From Paraspadella gotoi (lineage: Eukaryota; Animalia; Chaetognatha), in assembly GCA_051294375.1 (NCBI GenBank), contig CM119271.1:7740162-7804161 (forward strand): a stretch of DNA of 64,000 bases. The letters run 5' to 3'. Below are positions 1 to 64,000 of the stretch, piece after piece. The position numbers and the translations under genes were made by a program. A model generated the notes under the pieces. The model was not told the DNA's origin. It did no database searches and saw nothing but the letters and a program-made list of their open reading frames with translations. The first letter of the stretch is position 1. The number at the start of each line of letters is the position of its first letter.

Positions 1-2698
1 TCACCGAGAAACATCGGGAGATGCTTACTCTCTTGATAGAGGAAATCAAAACTTCTCCCGGGCTCAACTTCCTCAATGACCAGAGGATAAGACAAGGCGC
101 TTACAAAATCTATGCCGACGCGAGCACAACGGCCATGGGAGGCCTCATCACAGCCACAGCAGATGGGGTGGAGTACCCATTATCTTTTCACTCCAAATCN
201 NNNNNNNNNTGCTTTCAATATGATGGTAAGGAAGTATAAAGGATATACGTGTGGCAGGAGAGTCACGTTAGTAACAGACTCCCAATACTTTAAAAGAGTC
301 ATGGATCTTCAACACGACAAGCAGCAGCTCCTCCCAACAAATGTTCTTCGCTGGATCACAGAAATAAAGCAAGAATGTCAACCTAAAGAAGTCATTCTGG
401 TCAAAAGCGAGGACAACCCCGCTGACTTCCTCACCCGCTTTACCGAACAAGGACAGATTACCCCCCTTGACACCCCCTTTTTCCCGGCTGGTTTTGACGT
501 AGATGGAAGTTACGAGCCTGGTTATGCTGAGAATCCGGCAGGAGACGAAGAGGCACCAAGCCACCTCGACCTCATCACCGGACATGCTCCAACTCTCACC
601 CTAATGGCTCAGCTCTTACAACAAGAAACAAAACCTTTTCGAACAAGATTTTTCGAGTTTGTAAGACAAAATTTTGCCAACAGAAAGAAAAATATGGAAA
701 AACTGTATGGGAAAACAAAAACGAAAGATTCAGACACTTTCATCAGGACAATATCCGCGAAAGATTGGACACTCGGACATCCCGAACTAGAGATGTTGGC
801 CGAAATGACCGGCATCAACATAATTGTCATGGATGAGGACAACATCAGCCAAACTGGTTGCAAATACGAGAGATCTTATCAAGCTTCTCGGGCAGACAGA
901 ACAATAAAGATATTCAGAACCATCACCGGCCAGGTTAGCCTAGTTGGAGACTCTAACCTAGCCCAACAGCTACGACCAATAAAACCGGTAGACTTAAAGA
1001 TTGTATCTGTCAAAAGCTTACGACAACCAACCAACAGGGGAAGGCCAAGAAATCAACAAATTGGCACCAGACATACCAGTGAAGCCCCACCTGATTTATT
1101 ACATATAAATCTCAACCTCAGCGAAAAGCAACAACATCAAGCCCAAACCAGACCTTTCAGCGAAACCCCGGCCGACTTGATAAACATAAACCTCGAGGCC
1201 AAAACAGGAACGAACCAACAAGCCAGGCCAACTAATCATGACAGCAGCATAGTCGACAGGATCCCCATCAACTGGCCAGGCGCAAAGGAAGAAGTCTCAG
1301 TTGATAGCACCCTCGAGACAAGCATTGATATCACAAGGAGGGAGGTCGAAGAAGAATTAAGAAACCCACAACCACAGAACTTTTCCCTCGTCCCACTAGC
1401 CAGAGAAATCAGAGATTGGCAACAACAAAACTCAATTTTCAAGGAGGTTATTTTGTTGCTCAAAAACAACGGCAAAGAGAAAGCAAAAACTTTGCTTGAA
1501 AAAAAGATGACAAAAGGCAAAAATACGGCGGAGAGGTATCTCACAAATTGCATAGACGACCTTGAGGTCACCACGGACAATATCCTCACCATAAGAGGCT
1601 ACAAAGGGGACACGCCAACCTACAAGTACGTCGTCCCACCCGAAAAGGCTGAAGCAATCACTCATAAGATACATATACAATTTGGACACCCAGGGCGAGA
1701 TCGCACAGCTTTTATCACAGCCCAATACATCTCCACACCAGGATTAACATCAGCAGCCGCGAAAGTTGTGCGAAATTGCGATAATTGCGCAAAAGCCACG
1801 GATCAACAAAAGAACAACGAGACCTCGTCAGCGCCCAACCTCGCCATCGCTCCGTGGGAATCATTAAGCATTGACGTAATGCATCTACCAACCGTTTCAG
1901 GTTACAAATACGCCTTAATCGCCTCAGACAATGCATCTGCATACACCTGGGCAATCCCACTGAAACGAGCTGACGCCGACAGCCTCGTCAAGGCACTTGA
2001 TGAAAATATCTTTCTCCTCCATGGATCATATCTCGAAATAAATTTTGATGGAGCAACACAACTCAACGGAGGCGCAATGAAATCTATTCTAAACCTCCTT
2101 GATACAATCGGCCGAAAAATATTAGTTGGACGCAAAAATAGCAACAGGGCCGAAAGAGATATTGGCAGGAATAAGACAGGCCTTGCGCAAAGCAGTCGAA
2201 GATCAACCAGACAAATGGCTCCAAATGTTACCCCAGCTGATGTTATTGTTAAACGCCACTCCTATCATCGGCTGGAAAACAGATATGTCCCCCCATGAGA
2301 TCCAGTATGGACACAGGCCAAGGATCCTCGAAAGTGCCGACGACTACACCAAAAGGTCACTCGTTGGTTACGTCAGAAACCGAGCAAACAGGCGAGAGGA
2401 AGCTGAAAGAAAGCTGGCAAGTCAGAGGCTTGACCTCTACAGGCAAAGCTCAAGACGGAACCCTTACAGGAAGCCAAAAGAAATCAAAGTAGGGGACTTG
2501 GTATTGGCAAGAAGGGACCTCATCACAACGGGCGCAGCACCAACCGAAAACAAAGTCAAGCGCATCTATACAGGCCCTCACCAAGTTCTTCAAAAAGACG
2601 GAAATCACTTTGTAATAAGCATAAACGGCCAGCGATCTAAATATCACAGACGTCGTCTCAAACTCCACCAAGCGCCCGAGAACGATGCCATCGAATAG
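1..2698 (+). CDS. pol: Pol polyprotein C-terminal part (RNase H, linker, integrase); frame changes across the N gap at 200-209 and at about 2170
   Basis: RNase H motifs IYADAS..GG, YPLSFHSK, LVTDSQ, LRW, DNPADFLTR. Integrase zinc finger H..IHIQFGHPG..CDNC. Catalytic SIDV (D at 1873), NFDG (D at 2047), RAER (E at 2152). Removing one extra A near 2170 gives IGRIRQALRK..W...LP..LLLNATP..SPHEIQYG..VGDLVL..YTGPHQV. Confidence 0.9.
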
Positions 2699-2834
2699 AT
2701 AGAAATCAACATAGTAAAACTAGTGTAACGCAGACGTACAAAAGAAACAAACAAATCGACGCCAAAATCTCTCCCTGATCTTTCTCGTAATTTCTCTTAA
2801 TTTCTCGAAATCTCTCTAATCTCTCGTAATCTTG

Positions 2835-3080
2835 AAAGAAACAATAGAGCAACGGAGCCATTTCCCAAAGAAAAAGAAACGACGTTAAAACGAAAAACAA
2901 TAACTTTTTTCAAGCCAAACAAGCCAAACAACACCATAATCTCATTTTCCCCTCACTAACAGGATTAAAGAAACAATAGAGCAACGGAGCCATTTCCCAA
3001 AGAAAAAGGAAACGACGCTAAACTTTTTCAAGCCAAAAGAAAAAGAAACGACGCTAAAATTTTTTTTCAAGCCAAACAAG
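2835..3080 (+). repeat. Imperfect direct repeats in the pol-env intergenic region
   Basis: AAAGAAACAATAGAGCAACGGAGCCATTTCCCAAAG at about 2835 and about 2967. Repeated GAAACGACG(C/T)TAAA and TTTTCAAGCCAAA sub-units. Confidence 0.85.
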
Positions 3081-3120
3081 GAAAAAGAAAACAATAAACT
3101 TCCCCGACGCGAACCGCGGA

Positions 3121-3253
3121 CCAATCAGGAGGCTCCCAAAAACTTTACAAACGCCAATCATAATCAAGAAACAAAAAAACGGGAAATCCAGCCCACGTCG
3201 TTGATCCGACCAGCGAGTTTAAAAGGGGACAGAAAGACGAACTCGCCATCAGA
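3121..3253 (+). promoter_or_regulatory. Candidate internal Pol II promoter upstream of env
   Basis: CCAAT boxes at 3121 and 3154, TATA-like TTTAAAAG at 3218-3225, Inr-like TCAGA at 3249-3253, about 110 nt before the env ATG. Confidence 0.4.
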
Positions 3254-3359
3254 GCAAAGAAGAAACGTTCCAAGAGATCTTGCCTCTTCTCGCGAATTGA
3301 AATCAAAAATAAAAGATCGTCAGACAGATTTCAAATAAATCGCAAAGAGAAACAAGATC

Positions 3360-5176
3360 ATGGAAACAACAACAACAACGGCGACTCTCGTTTCACCTTA
3401 CCTGGTGGACGAGGGCAGAAAAGCGAAGCAACGGATCCCCAACACTTCAGCGATCCTTACTCCACCTTACCTGGTGGGTAAGGACAGAAGAAACAAGCCA
3501 GCAAGCTTATGGAACAAAACCATGCTTGTCTTAGCTTGTTGCATCATCACCACGGAGGCCGGAGAAAACCTTGTGCAAGTCTTTGACTGCAACAAAACGG
3601 CCCAACATGATGCGACTTTCCTAGACCCTCAACACTGCATCAAGGCGAAGCCAGTCGCCTCAAAGATCCAGAAGGCGGAACTCATCTTCTTGCCTGAGGG
3701 ATCACAACACGACGGGAAAGGCTGCGACATTACCATCACAGCAAAAGGCAGCGTCTGCGGCTGGTGGTCGATCCAGTACCCGAATCTGGACGCAGTTGAC
3801 CACCTTACTACAACAAGACAAAAATGCCTTAACATGCACAAAGGCATCGAAGTGACACTAGATGATGCTCCATTAAAGACAACTAACAAACATGGGGTGA
3901 TGAATCCAATTTCATTACCCAAACTGAAGCTGGGCACTAACCTACACAAAGTCACCGTCGGTTCCGTGGACGCAGATGGTTATTGCACCGGTGAAAAATT
4001 TATTTTTCACGACTACGTTTACGACGGAGAACGGGCAAAAATCGTGATAAATATCACATTATACGAACAAAAGATCGATGTCGCGGACACCGAAAATCTA
4101 CCACTCAGGACGCAGTGTAACAAAATTGCCCATAGTTGCACTTACCCTGGCGGCATCCTCGCTTGGACGGAACCATCTTGTAGAGCAAGAAGAGCCTTCG
4201 CGGGGCCAATCAAGCGCACGGAGGACGGCTTCATCCGTTCCCTGGGCCCCAATGACAAGCAAAAGGCCCTCCAGAACTGCACTCAGAGGCGAGGCAACGC
4301 CCCCTGCAGCCGTAGCAAAATGATAAACTTGGGATTTGGCCAATGCTGGAGAGCTTGCTTACATGATTTCAAGTTTGAAAAAGACCAAACTGACAATTAT
4401 GAGAAATGTGCCCCCATCTGTGACGCGGAGATGAATCCTCCGTTCGCTCTTCGCCTCACAGGCGATAGTCAGCTCATGCCAGGATGCGGAATAAGAGCAC
4501 AAAAGACGTCCTCGCCGCATTTCTTCTTCACCACGGATGTCACACCCGACCTGCAAAGAGACGAAAAGCTTATCCAAGCCATAAGCAAACGTTTCTCCGA
4601 ACTTGGAAAAAAGAATCATGAAGAATTAGAAGCACTAACCCAAGTTCTCCGGCGTGAAATTTGCAAATTAAAGGTCGACGAGGCCAGATCTATAGCAGCA
4701 AAAGCCCACGCCAACCCTTCCTCCGTTACGTTCATGGAAAGAGGGACAATCGCCTTCTTACGAGGGGAATTGCTACTCACAGCAAAGTGTAGCCTCACCT
4801 TAGCCCACTTACGACAAACAGAAACATGTTTTAAGGACTTACCCATCAAATTTAGAGGAAAAGAGTTATTCCGTCATTCGATTCACCATCACATCGTACA
4901 AACCCGACAACGAGTTGCAACCCGCCGCCTATTTATATGCAACAGGGAACCTATAAAACAAAAACGGGAGAAATCATCAGTAATTATTCAAAAATAACAT
5001 CAAACATGCCAGACGAGAAACAAGATCCATCTACTGAGGCAAATCTTTTCTAAAGATACAAGATTTCCTCGAAAAACATCACAAATTTACGACCGGATTC
5101 CAGGACTTCAAAGATAACCTGGAAAAATACAAGCATGGATCAACTTACTCAAGCTTCAAAAAAGTCATCGGAAATT
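3360..5176 (+). CDS. env: Env-like glycoprotein resembling chuvirus (Jingchuvirales) G, class III fusogen type; 3' end frameshifted and running into the gap
   Basis: Signal-like MLVLACCIITTEAG, then VFDC, CDITITAKGSVCGWWS, RQKCLNMH, GSVDADGYCTG, PFAL..CG, GTIAFLRGELLLTAKC and RQTETCFKDLPI, matching recalled chuviral G motifs in order. After about 4903, alternative frames read PTTSCNPPPIY and LKIQDFLEK..KVIGN up to the gap. No TM anchor is visible. Confidence 0.78.
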
Positions 5177-5318
5177 NNNNNNNNNNNNNNNNNNNNNNNN
5201 NNNNNNNNNNNNNNNNNNNNNNNNNNNNNNNNNNNNNNNNNNNNNNNNNNNNNNNNNNNNNNNNNNNNNNNNNNNNAACAAAACAAACGAAATAAAAACG
5301 CGACCCATCGCTCCTTAC

Positions 5319-7024: not shown

Positions 7025-7420
7025 CGTCTCCGTTCGACTTGAGACTATCCTTCGAAACCAAAGAATCCTGAGTGGCGCAACTCCTGACGCCGTCCTCGAT
7101 TTCAGGAGTCTCTTTCGACGCCGCGGCGCTCTTTTCGTCCCCGACGGCGCCGCGACGGTGCTGCCCCTGGCGGAGACCGGAGAAACCCGTCGACGACGAC
7201 GACGACGAAGCCGACGAAGTGGGGGACGGCGCCGACCATTTGTTGTTGTTTTGACGCCCTTTGTTGGCGCCGCTTCGTCCGGCCTTTTTGTTCTTCCGGC
7301 CGCTCTTTCCGGAGCCGGAGGATTTCTTGCGGCCGCCGCCGCCGCCGCTGCTGCTGCCAACGGCGTCGCCGCCGCTTTTGGCGTTGGAAGGTGAGGATTT
7401 GGAGGTGGATGCGACCGGTT
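7025..7420 (-). CDS. tutl: Turtle-like gene, cytoplasmic exon (3' end in gap)
   Basis: Acceptor ccctcag| at 7421-7423. A phase-1 join to the TM exon reads KY-E-PVASTSKSSPS..GRKKSSG..KSNGD. Confidence 0.65.
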
Positions 7421-8921
7421 CTGAGGGTGAGGAGAGGTGGAGGTGAGCTTTGAGTCCAATGAAAGGAAGGTAAGTTACACGTTTTTATCCTTTTGTATAT
7501 ACAATTTATACATAAATAATACCAATAAAATTTTAAAGTGTTTGATGGTATTGATGGAGGTCATAAAGCTTCGAAAAGCGGAATAAAGTCGAACGACCTC
7601 GCGGTAAATAAAAATAAGTTTGCTGAGAACGTTGGACCGGCGCCATCGTCTCTTCTGCGCCATTTTATACCCGATTTCATTTGGTCTTCAATGCGCAGAA
7701 TTAGTCCAGTCAGTTAGAATTCAAAGACGCCACTTCTCCGAACTTAGTTCAAAACATTAGAATTTTCTCAACTCCTAAAAACCTAAAAATACTTTAAGAA
7801 AAGAAGAGACGACAAATTCGGAAACAAAATTCGAAAGCGAAGTGAATTGAAAACCCGAAAAGAAGGGGAAAAAAAATTTACTCGTTATAAAGCGAATCGC
7901 TTGCGCGGTCATGCAATCCCGGGAAAGTGAAAGGCTAAGAGGGTTGTCGTTAGCGTAGTGTCGAAAGTGAATGAGTGAGAGGAAAAGTGAAATAAAAAGA
8001 AAAAAGAAAAAAAAANNNNNNNNNNNNNNNNNNNNNNNNNNNNNNNNNNNNNNNNNNNNNNNNNNNNNNNNNNNNNNNNNNNNNNNNNNNNNNNNNNNNN
8101 NNNNNNNNNNNNNNNNNNNNNNNNNNNNNNNNNNNNNNNNNNNNNNNNNNNNNNNNNNNNNNNNNNNNNNNNNNNNNNNNNNNNNNNNNNNNNNNNNNNN
8201 NNNNNNNNNNNNNNNNNNNNNNNNNNNNNNNNNNNTTTTTTTGTTTTTTAACGAACTTCTGCCTCCGTTCGACAAATTGGAGAAAATTCTTTCACCCGAG
8301 TTAAACAAAATTGGGTGGNNNNNNNNNNNNNNNNNNNNNNNNNNNNNNNNNNNNNNNNNNNNNNNNNNNNNNNNNNNNNNNNNNNNNNNNNNNNNNNNNN
8401 NNNNNNNNNNNNNNNNNNNNNNNNNNNNNNNNNNNNNNNNNNNNNNNNNNNNNNNNNNNNNNNNNNNNNNNNNNNNNNNNNNNNNNNNNNNNNNNNNNNN
8501 NNNNNNNNNNNNNNNNNNNNNNNNNNNNNNNNNNNNNNNNNNNNNNNNNNNNNNNNNNNNNNNNNNNNNNNNNNNNNNNNNNNNNNNNNNNNNNNNNNNN
8601 NNNNNNNNNNNNNNNNNNNNNNNNNNNNNNNNNNNNNNNNNNNNNNNNNNNNNNNNNNNNNNNNNNNNNNNNNNNNNNNNNNNNNNNNNNNNNNNNNNNN
8701 NNNNNNNNNNNNNNNNNNNNNNNNNNNNNNNNNNNNNNNNNNNNNNNNNNNNNNNNNNNNNNNNNNNNNNNNNNNNNNNNNNCAATTAATCAAAGGACGT
8801 TGAGGCTCGGAATCTCTTGGCGACATTCCATAAATTTTCAGCCTCTCCATCTCTGGATGCTGCCGACGACGACGACGACGACCACGATGACGACGACGAC
8901 GACGATGACGACGACGACGAT

Positions 8922-31075: not shown

Positions 31076-31284
31076 CTCTCTCTTCTCTCTACTCTCTTCT
31101 CTCTCTCTCTTCTCCTTTCATCTTGCGAAATTAAATGAAAAACGATGAAGCAGAGACTTCTCATCACAACTTCCTGACGCCCACGCCCACTTTTCAAATT
31201 CCCCCCCGCCAGAATTCGCCACCCCTTCAACGATCGAACACCCCCCCTTTCCCCTTACCCCGCGACAACTTCCTATAACCCCAG

Positions 31285-31417
31285 TTCACCTTCCGCTGCG
31301 TATCTGCGATAACGGGATACGTTGGACGCCAATGCGCCGGACACCGTTCGGGCACTATTGCGCCAGCGCCCCCTGCAGAAACGGCGGCACCTGTCGGAAC
31401 GGCATCGAAACTTTCAG
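31285..31417 (+). CDS. EGF-repeat exon of an EGF + F-type lectin gene (contains indels)
   Basis: ..GYVGRQC then HYCASAPCRNGGTCRNGIETF(R). Acceptor ccag|, phase-2 donor ag|gt. Confidence 0.75.
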
Positions 31418-31684
31418 GTGGCGTTCGAGCGATATTTTTTGAAAGCGCCCCGGGGGGCGGGGCGGAGAGGGTTAGACGCCGGGAAGGAACGGAATTTTTT
31501 TTTCCGGCGCCGGATTAATGGCGGATATTCGCTCATGAAAATTCCATTGGCTTCCGTCTCTTTTTTTTCTCGAACGTCTTTTATTTCTTCATCAACTTTG
31601 TTTATCAATTTTTTATCTGTTTTTTTTCCCTTCTTTTTTTAAAAAAAAATACTAATCCTTGGTTTCGAGTTTATCGTATTTTTT

Positions 31685-33965: not shown

Positions 33966-34711
33966 GTTTAATATCGCTTAAAAAAATATGACAATGACGT
34001 GGTCGAAGATTATGACAATGTCGTTGAGGGAGAAAATGACAATGTCGACGATGCCAATGACGTCACTATGATGACAACTACTACTATCTACTATCTAGGA
34101 AAAAAGTATATCACATAATTGTTGAAAAATTTATTTATTCATTAAAAAATATATAAAATATAGGTAAAATATTTTTAATATTTGGTATACCCTGCTTTGG
34201 TATCGACTATTGCCTGCATTTGTCTGGGCATGCTCTCGTATAGTGAAATGTTTTTCTACAACTTTATTCTTTTCAGCCCGCCACTGATAATATGCATTTT
34301 TTCTTTTTTTTAAGAGCTAAAAAGTACTTTTATGAACCAAAAAACGATTTTTTTGCTATTTTTTATTTAAGGTAGCGATCTTTTGTTACCTGCAACTTCT
34401 AAACAGTTTAAGCTATAAAAAGTATGAAGAAAGCTACTAAAAAAAAATTCAATGTAGATTTAAAAGCAATCTGATTTATTTAAAATTAAACAAGTTTTCG
34501 AGTAGATATTCTCTACAAAAAGTGTGAAATACTTTTTTCCTAGATGGTATGTCGACTAAGATGACAATGACAATGATTTAGTGGACTAGGATGACAATGA
34601 CGTGGTCGACGGTCATAACGTTTAAGACGACGATGACAATGATTACCACTAACGCAACAACGACAACGACGACGACGACGACAGATACGACGACAACGAC
34701 GACGACGACAG

Positions 34712-34994
34712 CAAAACCGTCGAAGCCCCAAACCTAAATTCCGAGGTGACGGACGGTAACAAATTCTTCGCCAATCAACGTCGCTCGTCCGAAGACGCCG
34801 ACGAGGACGACGACGACGACGACGACGGCGTCCCCGACGCCGTCTCCTCTCCCGCCGAGGGTTACGCCATCTTGGGCAACGCCCACAACTTGTTGACGTG
34901 GACCTGCGTGGTGACGCAAGAGGAAGAGAATCCTTGGATCATCGTGGATTTGGAGGAGGAGTCCGAGATTCATCAGATCGAAGTGCATTTGAGG
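34712..34994 (+). CDS. FTP-domain core exon (3' end in gap)
   Basis: VTDGN..TCVVTQEEENPWIIVDLEEESEIHQIEVHLR matches the FTP pattern DG..C.HT....PWW.VDL......I..V.I..R. Confidence 0.78.
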
Positions 34995-51073: not shown

Positions 51074-53487
51074 CTAAGACAAATCGTCCGAGTTCAAGGA
51101 CATAAGTCCAATTTTTGATCCCTGCACGATTTTAAAATGTCGCGCCTGAAATTCCGACCCCATCGGCTCCGGATATCCGCACAAGAACAAGCCGATTATT
51201 TCTCCTCCCGGCAATTGGGGCGAAACGACAACGGATCCCGAAAGACCCCAAGCCATCCCGTCGTTGCTCATGAGGAACCTTTTGGGATGCAGCAACTGGC
51301 ACAATTGCTTCGCCAAGAGATTCCGCGACTCCGCATTAACTTCCGAGTTATGTTTAAACAAAGCACTCTTCACGATCGAATCCACGATTTCTTTCGCAAC
51401 GATTTTGTCGTTTTCATTTTCGCACGATTCCTTTACCGCGTCGCACTGCGCTTGCGCATTTTTCAACAAAACGCATAGATTTTCCGAGGAAAAGTTGTTC
51501 AGCTCTTTGGGCAAAACGTCATCCCGCGATTCGAGCATCAACTTGGCCACGTGTTTACACTTTCTCGCTTCGTAATTGCTTTTGAAAAACGCTATTTCGT
51601 CGACGGTTCCCAAGGAATTTGAAGGAAACCCAAAGACGTAGACCTTGTTGAAACACCGCCAAAATCCTGGAGAATGGTTGAGTTGTATGGGCGCGGCAAG
51701 GATGTTGTCGGAGATTCTCGCTTGAGGTAACGGACTCACACGTAAAAGAACGTGGTCAGTATCTTCAACGCCGCCGTATCTAACGAGAGCGGTCGCGGGA
51801 AAATAATGTGTCGGAATCAGGGCGCCTCCAGAATTGAAACAGACGCGTGCCGTCTCCACGTTGAGTTTTGTCCACACGTGATACGCGGTAAGAATTTTGC
51901 CTATTTTACTATTGCTGTCGTAAGAGACGAGAGTTGCATTTCCTTCGAGTTTCACGGGAATACCGTTGCTTGATACGGTCACGATGTAAGCTTGGGAAGA
52001 CGCCAACATGTATTTATTGATCAAGCTCACGTCCATAAAACTTCCGCCTTTTCCCACTTCCTCGCTTTTCTTTTGGCGAAGTGGGGGTCTGGCCATTTCG
52101 GCAGGGGGAGAGGAATTCGCTTGGTTGCCGTTGGGGTCCATGCCGACCGTCAATGAATTATCATTGCTTACTCCCTGATCAAAGCTGCCGAGGCTGGATC
52201 TTCCATCAGCATCGTAACTGCTGAAACTGCTGCCGATGCTGAGCTTTGCTCTTTTGTTCGTCGGTTCGTCGATCGATTGATTGGTCGAAGATATTCCGGA
52301 ATCCTGACTGACGGATGTGTTTAGGACTTTGGGATTACGGGGGTTCTCTTTATCGTCGTCTTCATCATCGTCGTCATCGTCGTCTTCTCTTCCGCCGGCC
52401 AAATTCTGAGAAGTTCCAATTCCCTTCTCGTAGCGATTTTTATTTTCTTCGAGTTCGTCTTCAATCCAAGTCCGAGAATTTTTCTCAGCTTCGGAAAATC
52501 TATTTTCTATCTCATTCGCCGATAATTTATGACTTTCGAACGACCACGAGACGAAATCAAGAACGAGACATTTTCGCAGAACGTCGTTGTTTTCGAGAGT
52601 CGTCGTTATACTTTTGGCTAAAACCGTGGCGTGAGATCTCATCAGCGATTTACTTCCGGAACAACTCACGCTCACGAACAGATTGGGCGGCTCTATCTCG
52701 ATAAGCGTCATCACGCCCCCTATGAATCCGCTGGCGCCATTGAGCGTCGCTTTAACCGACCCCGCTTCGCAGAATTCGAAAAGCGGCAGGGGCAACCAAG
52801 GGGATACGACGGAAACGTCCGTACCAAACGAGGTAAGTTTATATTTTGCAGCGAGGTTGAAACGATTTTCCACCGGGAGTTGAGGCAATTTCACATCGGG
52901 CAGTCGAAGGGATAACAGCGGGCAGTAGAACCACTCTCTCAATTTATCTTCTAGAATTTGCTTGGCTTTTGCAGGGGGCGTCGTGGGGAATAAGAGCCGT
53001 TGCATCCTCAGTTCGTAAATCGCTTCGTCAAAACTGGATTCGGTATAGTGGAGCTTCCGAAGGAATTGCGCCGGAGCGAAGCCACTAGAAACGATTTCCG
53101 CGAAAGGATTAATTTTCTCGGCGTCCAGGATCCAAGTGTGCTCTATATATTCCACGATTTCTTCGAAGTCAGAGGGCAGCACCCCAAGAGTCGATTTCCA
53201 GCTCGCCCTCGCTTCCATGACGGGCGATTCCATGATGAAGGACACGTCCATAAATACTTCGTCTGGAGACGTTTTCGTCATTTTCTCTTCTTCGACGTAG
53301 ACTTGGTCCGGTCTGGTAACGTAATTCATTAACGGCGGCGAAAGCGAGCTTCCCGAGTCGGTCGACGAGTCTCGGGAGAAGGTCGCCTTTTCGGTCTCCA
53401 TCGAGGAAAAGGCCGAGTCGGGTGACGATGGAGAGAGAGAAGGTTTTAAAGATTCGAATTGGGAAGTGAGTGAAGATTCCGACGGAT
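51074..53487 (-). CDS. Paralog B: S-rich N-terminus, COR-like region, linker and trypsin-like serine protease (large exon)
   Basis: Acceptor ccttcag| at 53488-53490. Triad motifs ILTAYHV, TDHVLL and GLSGSVVV. Clearly paralogous to 48404-50504. Confidence 0.87.
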
Positions 53488-53575
53488 CTGAAGGTGAGAG
53501 AAAGTGAAATGATGTTTTAGAATAATATAAGTTTATATTTATATTATATTGAGGCAGCTTTAAGTCTTGCCTCAC

Positions 53576-53631
53576 TGCTGTCCGTCCTCAGCCTCGTCTT
53601 GGCTTGGGCTCGGCTTGAGCACTGTTTACAA
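53576..53631 (-). CDS. Possible small upstream exon of paralog B
   Basis: A phase-1 donor A|gtgagg matches the 53487 acceptor, reading ..RAQAKTRLRTDS-N-PSES. Confidence 0.4.
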
Positions 53632-62844: not shown

Positions 62845-63691
62845 AAAAAAAAGAAAGAAACAGAGAAACAAAAATAAAGAAACAAAGATAGAAAGAGTGA
62901 TAGAGAAAGATACGGGAAGACAGACGGACAGAACAAAATTCTTATTCCAATTCGAAATTTCGGTTCTATAACCAACGTCACCTATTTCCCCACCCCCACA
63001 TCATCTGTTCTCCCCCAATTTTCATTCTAATTCCACCTCATCTGTTTTCCTTCTGTTTATCGTCTCCTTCTACACCCCACTCTTTATCACCAAGTCTTCC
63101 ACACCCCAATATCCCCGCAACACCACCGTTATTCTTTTTGGATTCTCGATTAAATTTCATCCTCGACTTTTTTACTTTTTATTCCAATTGAAAACGAACT
63201 TAGTTTGTTTTATTTTTACGTCGGGAAGATGAAACTGAACGAGGTTGTTGTTATCGTTATATAAAAATTGGAATAGTTAATCATGAACAATCTTGGACTA
63301 AAGAACATTGATATATAAAAAAAAAAATTAAAAATTTAAAAGATAGCCAAAAAATCAAAAAACTATATTTTTTACACTAAACTTTAATTATAGGTTAATT
63401 ATAATAGTAACGAATTCGAATCTGCTAACAAAAATAAGAAAAAAACCATTTTAAAAAAATATGGGCGTATGCGAAAATTAAACTAAAAATCATTTTTTTT
63501 ATTTAAAAATGTTCACAAGCCTGTTCGCGATCTACTATTCGAATTTTGATTCTACTTGATTTTAATATTTTTGCTACGCTTTAATATATATATAAATGTA
63601 ACGACTCCGAAGCATTCTAACCCTTATCTCTAATCTAGTCTTTAACCCTAAAAAAACTAACTTTATTGCGCATTTAAGATTAAATGGGGCG

Positions 63692-63743
<52 letters not shown>

Positions 63744-63802
63744 TACAAATTCGACACTGTGACTCGTCACCCCACAACCAATAACTCGAGCAACGAACTC
63801 AC

Positions 63803-63981
63803 CCTTAGTCCGCGTGTAAACGACTTGAGAGAAATTTCCTTTTCCCTGACGATCGATGGCGCGAACGGAAAACTCGTAGGACGCGTCGGGAAGGAGACCG
63901 TCGACGACGAACTCCGTGGCGCCTGTGGGCGTGACCGGAACCGTTCGCCACGCGGAAGAGGCGCCGTGGGTGCGTTTGAAC
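63803..63981 (-). CDS. tutl: Turtle-like gene, first FN3 domain, C-terminal half
   Basis: acccag|..FKRTHGASSAWRTVPVTPTGATEFVVDGLLPDASYEFSVRAIDRQGKGNFSQVVYTRTK|gtgagt is an FN3 motif. Not in the supplied ORF track. Confidence 0.85.
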
Positions 63982-64000
63982 CTGGGTTGGAGGGAGAGTG

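What the first reader, a model, noticed from the sequence alone, without database searches (positions are those of the whole stretch)
1..5176. Ty3/gypsy element carrying a chuvirus-like (class III) envelope gene: candidate invertebrate endogenous retrovirus lineage
Seen: a gypsy-type RNase H and integrase, followed after about 660 bp by a same-strand Cys-rich glycoprotein ORF with a signal-like segment. Established: insect errantiviruses use a baculovirus F-type env, and chuvirus-like glycoproteins are best known as captures by BEL/Pao elements. Inference: the motifs here (FDC, C..CG..S, GSVDADGYCTG, GE.L..KC, CFKDLP) are chuviral G-like, so this looks like a gypsy element with a negative-strand RNA virus-type fusogen. 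The long open frames suggest a young insertion, and the few frameshifts may be sequencing errors.
Basis: partly seen in the sequence, partly recalled or inferred. Interest (0 to 1): 0.85.

Follow-up and report, generated by a model that had tools for sequence, protein, structure and literature searches.

The report
Gypsy retroelement with herpes-like fusion gene
A retrovirus-like jumping gene whose polymerase gene is followed by an envelope gene of the chuvirus/herpes glycoprotein B family, likely young and present in several copies; this combination is already described across invertebrates, so it is mostly an ordinary new member, with a possible inactive deubiquitinase-like insert as its one odd trait.

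Summary
Window 1-2698 is the 3' half of a gypsy-type pol (RNase H, then integrase). After 661 nt comes an env ORF (ATG 3360) that matches Pfam Monjiviricetes_fusion (E 3e-18); a profile of its relatives hits herpesvirus gB (E 4e-4). Contigs from 4 runs of 3 studies differ from the window at all three frame breaks, so these are likely assembly errors. In three DNA runs pol and env have equal depth, about 3.5-3.8 times the flank in two, which fits a linked, young, multi-copy element. The claimed novelty fails: Chary and Hayashi (PMC13524379) report chuvirus-like env beside gypsy pol, and 221 of their 1,512 elements carry gB-type env. What remains: the env is a divergent branch (best relative 31%) with a six-cysteine insert, and a 396-residue stretch between RNase H and integrase holds a weak OTU-like segment lacking catalytic Cys and His (Pfam E 0.003, below cutoff; folds uninformative). 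Gag, RT, LTRs, transmembrane anchor, host taxon and expression were not seen. Verdict: new member of a known kind.

The parts
3..438 (+). RNase H of pol, split by a 10-N gap at 200-209 (contigs hold 48 letters there)
   Evidence: Pfam RT_RNaseH_2 E 1.3e-4 and RT_RNaseH E 0.05-0.07, all below cutoff; motifs; gap bridged in 4 of 4 runs
571..960 (+). Tentative OTU-like segment in the pol bridge; no Cys or His where an OTU protease has them
   Evidence: Pfam OTU 18.3 bits, E 0.0034 after trimming, cutoff 23.3; E 0.051 untrimmed; Atlas 0.79, cluster with OTU on 20% of members; Cys/His positions; fold pLDDT 39
976..1380 (+). Polar linker with a short internal duplication around two LxxINLxL motifs
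   Evidence: No Pfam hit for 976-1500; composition; duplication read from the sequence
1381..1632 (+). Segment before the integrase finger; may be the 'mini domain' of PMC13524379 (inferred from position only)
   Evidence: Sequence; no Pfam hit for 1321-1650; definition in section 7
1633..2166 (+). Integrase zinc finger and catalytic core, D-D-X34-E
   Evidence: Integrase_H2C2 E 1.5e-8, rve E 4.3e-4; foamy virus integrase E 6e-7; spacing
2171..2698 (+). Integrase C-terminal part, in another frame after a break; GPH motif in place of GPY/F; weak SH3
   Evidence: ORF 2126-2698; SH3_Tf2-1 E 0.15-0.17; break not shared by contigs
2699..3359 (+). A-rich pol-env spacer, 661 nt, with a 56-bp direct repeat (2835-2889, 2967-3022)
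   Evidence: 43% A; self-blastn 96% identity
3360..5176 (+). Class III (chuvirus-G/herpes-gB family) env, two breaks near its 3' end, cut by the assembly gap before the membrane anchor
   Evidence: PF24664 65.5 bits, cutoff 27, E 3.2e-18; 13 of 21 Cys on family-conserved columns; profile hits gB E 3.7e-4; 38 relatives
3522..3560 (+). Signal-like hydrophobic segment starting at a second ATG
   Evidence: Hydropathy scan; no signal peptide predictor was run
4278..4421 (+). About 50-residue insert with six cysteines in the env middle region, shared with P0039/P0001, absent from the canonical members shown
   Evidence: Alignment A1; pairwise with P0039
5177..5276 (.). 100-N assembly gap hiding the end of env and any 3' LTR
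   Evidence: Sequence; contigs run 273 and 279 nt past 5176 (records 6 and 13)

Best explanation
This is the 3' half of a gypsy-type retroelement in which pol is followed by a class III (chuvirus-G/herpes-gB family) envelope gene, likely a young, multi-copy errantivirus in the broad sense of Chary and Hayashi. Shown: RNase H, integrase, spacer and env in that order on one strand; the family of the env; equal contig depth of pol and env. Inferred from the family: the element is LTR-bounded, copies itself through an RNA intermediate, reverse transcriptase and integrase, and makes Env from a separate message whose signals lie in or before the 661-nt spacer. Env would be a membrane-anchored trimer that fuses particles with neighbouring cells. 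By analogy with Drosophila gypsy, this would let particles made in somatic tissue reach the germline. The env belongs to an old, divergent branch, not a fresh capture from a sampled virus. The OTU-like bridge segment is most likely a catalytically dead domain carried in the polyprotein.
For: PF24664 E 3.2e-18. 13 of 21 Cys sit on columns where nearly all distant rows with a residue have Cys. The profile of 40 sequences ranks 41 herpesvirus gB sequences first among 44 PDB hits. Pol/env contig depth: 55/53 (X1), 67/70 (X2), 456-461/474 (X6), against 14.4 and 19.4 for the flank contig in X1 and X2. One 7,232-nt contig in X1 and X2 carries pol and 4,331 nt upstream of the window. The main contigs of X1, X2 and X6 show one substituted letter against the window across the element. 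All three breaks differ in 4 of 4 runs. The 661-nt gap fits the paper's 1,000-nt limit for non-insect elements.
Against: No single contig spans pol and env; they break at the 56-bp repeat. Gag, RT, LTRs, primer site and transmembrane anchor were not seen. The tool warns that depth is no copy number; the flank is GC-rich and may be under-covered; X6 lists no flank contig; in X9 element depth (3.7-8) overlaps flank depth (4.2). RNase H, rve and SH3 hits are below Pfam cutoffs, and no RT or integrase tree was possible. The env was folded only as a single sequence, with pLDDT 33.
Confidence: 0.85

Rival explanations
1. An independent, lineage-specific capture of a glycoprotein from an unsampled negative-strand RNA virus by this gypsy clade, separate from the described gB-type errantiviruses.
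For: The env and P0039 form their own long branch (SH-aLRT 99, stem 2.35) apart from canonical members, score only 62-66 bits on PF24664 against 290-680 for most full-length hits, and share a private six-Cys insert. No pol relative was found in two word-indexed searches.
Against: Described gB-type env groups are as divergent (18-32% identity within groups), and some carry extra domains. None of the 30 clusters looked up is named as a viral protein. The tree is a quick search with long branches meeting and no root.
Confidence: 0.12
2. Chance adjacency: an env-less gypsy copy lies next to an endogenised viral glycoprotein gene.
For: No contig spans both genes. PMC10084718 reports chuvirus-like glycoprotein fossils flanked by gypsy fragments without clear capture (passages).
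Against: Env depth tracks pol depth, not flank depth, in X1 and X2; contigs tile through the spacer; both genes share strand and base composition (A 33-35%, C 26%, G 21%) unlike the flank (A 21%, G 32%).
Confidence: 0.04
3. A BEL/Pao element of the Anakin type, the known carrier of chuvirus-like glycoproteins, mistaken for gypsy.
For: BEL/Pao has the same RNase H-then-integrase order (recalled), and one Atlas row carries Peptidase_A17 on 10% of members (score 0.77).
Against: Pfam hits are RT_RNaseH_2, Integrase_H2C2 and SH3_Tf2-1, with no Pao family listed. The motifs ADAS and W-x-x-x-S-I-D-V resemble gypsy (recalled). Best PDB hit is foamy virus integrase.
Confidence: 0.03

Closest known systems
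HSV/gB-type errantiviruses (env-carrying Ty3/gypsy) of Chary and Hayashi, PMC13524379
   Same: pol followed by a chuvirus-like, gB-type env within 1 kb; near-identical copies; non-insect hosts included; 221 of 1,512 listed elements.
   Different: Their bridge classes (RNase H plus mini or pseudo-RNase H domains; 5 marked 'Other') include no OTU class. The six-Cys env insert could not be compared with their figures. Whether this element or its clade is in their set is unknown.
Anakin, mosquito BEL/Pao elements with chuvirus-like glycoprotein (Dezordi 2020, PMC7642597; seen as search listing and as cited)
   Same: Same broad glycoprotein family joined to an LTR retroelement pol.
   Different: The pol here has gypsy-type, not Pao-type, domain hits; the env is a weak, divergent member of the family.
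Drosophila gypsy/ZAM/Idefix errantiviruses
   Same: pol-env order; supplies the model for soma-to-germline infection (discussion).
   Different: They use an F-type env and mostly a duplicated pseudo-RNase H bridge.
OTU domains of Ginger1 transposases and Helitrons (PMC2836005, passages)
   Same: A deubiquitinase-type domain fused to a transposon protein; Ginger1 has a gypsy-related integrase.
   Different: Those are DNA transposons with OTU after the integrase; here the segment lies before the integrase in a retroelement pol, is below cutoff and lacks the catalytic residues.

Membership tests
Ty3/gypsy (Metaviridae) | RNase H upstream of integrase | tested here: met
   Order 3-438 then 1633-2166
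Ty3/gypsy (Metaviridae) | Integrase with H2C2 finger and DDE core | tested here: met
   E 1.5e-8; D-D-X34-E
Ty3/gypsy (Metaviridae) | GPY/F module at the integrase C-terminus | tested here: inconclusive
   GPH variant; SH3_Tf2-1 E 0.15-0.17
Ty3/gypsy (Metaviridae) | RT or integrase phylogeny within gypsy | not testable with these tools
   RT lies outside the window; no reference or related pol retrieved
Ty3/gypsy (Metaviridae) | LTRs, primer-binding site, polypurine tract | not testable with these tools
   Both ends fall outside the window or in the gap; no repeat of the element elsewhere in the window; no genome held
Errantivirus, operational sense of PMC13524379 | env-like ORF within 1,000 nt downstream of pol | tested here: met
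   661-nt spacer
Errantivirus, operational sense of PMC13524379 | gag ORF upstream, all three ORFs uninterrupted | not testable with these tools
   4,331 nt upstream exist on one contig but were not readable; the three breaks are not shared by contigs
Errantivirus, operational sense of PMC13524379 | Several near-identical copies (typical, not required) | tested here: inconclusive
   Depth 3.5-3.8 times the flank in 2 of 4 runs; uncalibrated
Class III fusogen, PF24664 / HSV-gB type | Family score above curated cutoff | tested here: met
   65.5 bits against 27
Class III fusogen, PF24664 / HSV-gB type | Conserved cysteine scaffold and gB-like central helix region | tested here: met
   13 conserved Cys columns; gB E 3.7e-4 over 73 profile positions
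Class III fusogen, PF24664 / HSV-gB type | Five-domain trimeric fold | tested here: inconclusive
   Single-sequence model pLDDT 33; not searched against folds
Class III fusogen, PF24664 / HSV-gB type | Signal peptide | tested here: inconclusive
   Short, moderate hydrophobic stretch
Class III fusogen, PF24664 / HSV-gB type | C-terminal transmembrane anchor | not testable with these tools
   ORF cut by the gap at 5177; relative P0039 has a hydrophobic C-terminal stretch
Chuviridae glycoprotein fossil (recent viral capture) | Nests among named chuvirus G proteins | tested here: inconclusive
   No named viral G among 30 clusters looked up; long separate branch among 19 rows
BEL/Pao (Anakin) | Pao-type pol domain families | tested here: not met
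   None listed for the pol pieces in the window; only the 3' half of pol was available
OTU cysteine protease (PF02338) | Score above cutoff | tested here: not met
   18.3 bits against 23.3
OTU cysteine protease (PF02338) | Catalytic Cys near the start and His near the end of the domain (positions recalled) | tested here: not met
   No Cys between nt 376 and 859, no His between 778 and 1072; match covers only model positions 35-113 of 128
OTU cysteine protease (PF02338) | OTU fold | tested here: inconclusive
   pLDDT 39; no meaningful Foldseek or VIA match

The most novel reading that the evidence does not exclude
An undescribed errantivirus clade, shared by several sister families in this genome, whose Pol carries a captured, catalytically dead OTU deubiquitinase fold between RNase H and integrase that binds ubiquitin to shield the integration complex or blunt host defence, paired with its own gB-type env branch bearing a six-cysteine module that could replace missing receptor-binding partners.
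Probability: 0.25. Interest if true: 0.62.

Novelty: new member of a known kind. Interest (0 to 1): 0.3.

Why it matters
The gypsy plus class III env combination is established, so the finding adds one more element, not a new kind. It has modest value as a likely young element with a divergent env branch for which only unnamed metagenome fragments are relatives. How gB-type errantiviruses enter cells without herpes-like partner glycoproteins is stated as open in PMC13524379; a clade-specific cysteine module is a candidate. If the OTU-like segment is real, it would extend the link between transposons and ubiquitin proteases (Ginger1, Helitrons) to an LTR retroelement pol; four literature searches listed no such case, but Repbase and most subscription journals are not covered.

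Tried and rejected
Word-indexed homolog searches found nothing for env, the RNase H/OTU-like region or the integrase; these are weak negatives. Locus scans found no relative in metagenome contigs or viral contigs, so no second pol-env locus was seen. No whole genome is held. Single-sequence folds of env (pLDDT 33) and of the OTU-like segment (pLDDT 39) were poor; Foldseek (no hit at E 0.001) and VIA (best Z 5.1 on a helix pair) are uninformative. PDB sequence search with the OTU-like piece gave 0 hits at E 10. NCBIfam and PHROGs gave unrelated hits at E 0.025-0.028 on the same piece, which shows how easily weak hits arise. No RNA holder was listed; run X9 is only guessed to be RNA, so expression is untested. 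Single-copy depth was not calibrated on a host region. Rfam found nothing in the window. Earlier findings of the scan: none. Five short motifs or terms were searched in the 7 supplements of PMC13524379: the four sequence motifs gave 0 hits, but no protein sequences were seen in the parts read, so this is no test. The spacer was considered as an LTR between two elements and rejected: it has no second copy in the window and the same depth range as the genes. The host taxon was not determined; intron-split FN3, EGF and F5/8 exons point to an animal. The careful tree did not finish; the quick tree left out fragments under 450 aa and three near-duplicates (P0001, P0040, P0017).
Full report
Observation. 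The window opens inside a retroelement pol. RNase H motifs lie at 3-438 around a 10-N gap (Pfam RT_RNaseH_2 E 1.3e-4). An integrase follows at 1633-2166, with an H2C2 finger (E 1.5e-8), an rve core (E 4.3e-4) and D-D-X34-E; its best PDB match is foamy virus integrase (E 6e-7). Its C-terminal part continues in another frame to 2698. After a 661-nt A-rich spacer with a 56-bp direct repeat, an ORF starts at 3360 and runs, with two breaks, into a 100-N gap at 5177. Stop-free runs of 695 and 552 codons far exceed the maxima of 195 and 204 in 500 shuffles each.

The env. It matches PF24664 Monjiviricetes_fusion at 65.5 bits, cutoff 27. An exhaustive phmmer search gave 38 relatives at E 0.001 or better; 29 of the 38 match the same family at E 0.01. 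Thirteen of the 21 cysteines in 3519-4901 fall on columns where 11-17 distant rows, nearly all that have a residue, carry Cys; two lie in the signal-like segment; six form an insert of about 50 residues. The best relative, P0039 (unnamed ENA record, 31% over 455 residues), has the same insert with six cysteines and the same RARR motif just before it. A profile of the 40-row alignment ranks herpesvirus gB sequences in the first 41 of 44 PDB hits, best E 3.7e-4, over the central helix region. So the class III assignment rests on sequence, not on a model: the only env fold was single-sequence and poor (pLDDT 33). In a quick tree of 19 long rows, the env and P0039 form a long branch (SH-aLRT 99) apart from canonical members; long branches meet and the root is arbitrary. 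Of 30 clusters looked up, one bears an organism name (a beetle uncharacterised protein) and none a viral name.

Linkage, age and breaks. Nine runs of one organism, in 3 studies, hold 84-96% of the sampled words. I laid 4 of the 9. All four differ from the window at each of the three frame breaks, so the breaks are not shared and are likely errors of this assembly; I did not read the contig versions through. One 7,232-nt contig in X1 and X2 carries pol and 4,331 nt upstream of the window. Env contigs run 273-279 nt past the gap. No contig spans both genes; they break at the spacer repeat and otherwise tile across it. Pol and env depths agree (55/53, 67/70, 456-461/474) and are 3.5-3.8 times the flank contig in X1 and X2 (14.4, 19.4). 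That fits a few near-identical copies that all carry env. It is uncalibrated: the tool says depth is no copy number, the flank is GC-rich, X6 lists no flank contig, and X9 shows no clear excess. Short lower-depth contigs with 9-10 differences in about 110 nt at 91-199 and 340-451 show a diverged sister subfamily.

The bridge. Between the last RNase H motif and the integrase finger lie 396 residues. The only Pfam hit there below E 0.1 is OTU: E 0.051 in the whole piece, 0.0034 after trimming, 18.3 bits against a cutoff of 23.3, model positions 35-113 of 128. The Atlas independently lists an OTU-bearing cluster as best named hit, at 0.79, which is lead level only. The segment has a W-x-x-G-x-x-E-L ... 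N-I-I-V pattern that resembles OTU domains (recalled), but no Cys or His where the catalytic pair should be. Folding and fold searches were uninformative, a PDB sequence search found nothing, and other libraries gave unrelated hits at E about 0.03. A deeper, diverged contig matches the window for 29 nt ending at 602, the start of this segment, and again at 1924 in the integrase, in 3 of 4 runs (table 5), a hint that sister families keep the motif. I put an OTU-derived fold at about 60%, and an active protease at under 5%.

How it likely works. Shown: gene order, env family, equal depth. Inferred from Ty3/gypsy biology: LTR-driven RNA, Gag-Pol particle, reverse transcription, integration; Env from a separate message; a trimeric class III fusogen on the particle; passage from soma to germline as in Drosophila gypsy. 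Expression, particles and fusion are untested.

Comparison with what is known. PMC13524379 (read: abstract, sections 5 part 1, 6, 7, 9, 14, 22, term passages; supplement 1 part 1 and term searches, supplement 4 parts 1-2 of 3; figures and the GitHub sequences not seen) describes env-carrying gypsy elements across metazoans. It states that the mosquito BEL/Pao chuvirus-like glycoprotein also lies next to gypsy pol, found 114 such elements in one search, and lists 221 gB-type among 1,512. Within-group identities of 18-32% and extra env domains in some Branchiopoda make this env's divergence unremarkable. Its bridge classes contain no OTU; five elements are marked 'Other' and might hide one. PMC10084718 (passages) had found no clear gypsy capture in 2023. 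PMC2836005 (passages) reports OTU in Ginger1 transposases and Helitrons. PMC12440569 and PMC11943222 (passages) added nothing; PMC7642597 was seen as a listing only. Four searches for OTU in LTR retroelements listed no such description, within the limits of that library.

Verdict. A real, probably young gypsy-type element with a class III env: a new member of a known kind. Interest 0.3. The open points are the pol's place in the tree, the host phylum, and whether the bridge segment is a dead OTU domain.

Noticed in passing
window:37894-40664 (+): A second, decayed gypsy-like element in pieces across frames; RT fragment Pfam RVT_1 E 2.7e-6; no tblastn match to the first element's pol.
   Followed up: partly
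window:48407-50503 and 51077-53587 (-): Two tandem paralogous intronless ORFs of 699 and 837 codons, nearly unannotated; only a weak Trypsin_2 hit (E 0.006) on the first.
   Followed up: partly
window:15134-15484, 31149-31439, 34653-34994, 63666-63998: Exon-sized FN3, EGF and F5/8-type pieces of host genes among microsatellite-rich introns.
   Followed up: partly
window:3394-3420 and 3463-3489: The 54 residues before the env signal-like segment contain a short duplication (two PYL motifs); all 4 runs also hold a contig that loops back here (table 5), suggesting a variant with a further repeat.
   Followed up: no
window:4182-4193: RARR furin-like motif in env, conserved in P0039, just before the cysteine insert.
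   Followed up: partly
window:5277-6188 and 7025-7440 (-): Low-complexity open frames of a probable host gene on the opposite strand, next to the element across a 100-N gap; no Pfam hit for the first.
   Followed up: partly
P0022, P0031: Two database relatives show the fusion-protein domain joined to Ig domains (P0022) or a weak Bcl-2 match (P0031); may be gene-calling fusions or domestications.
   Followed up: no
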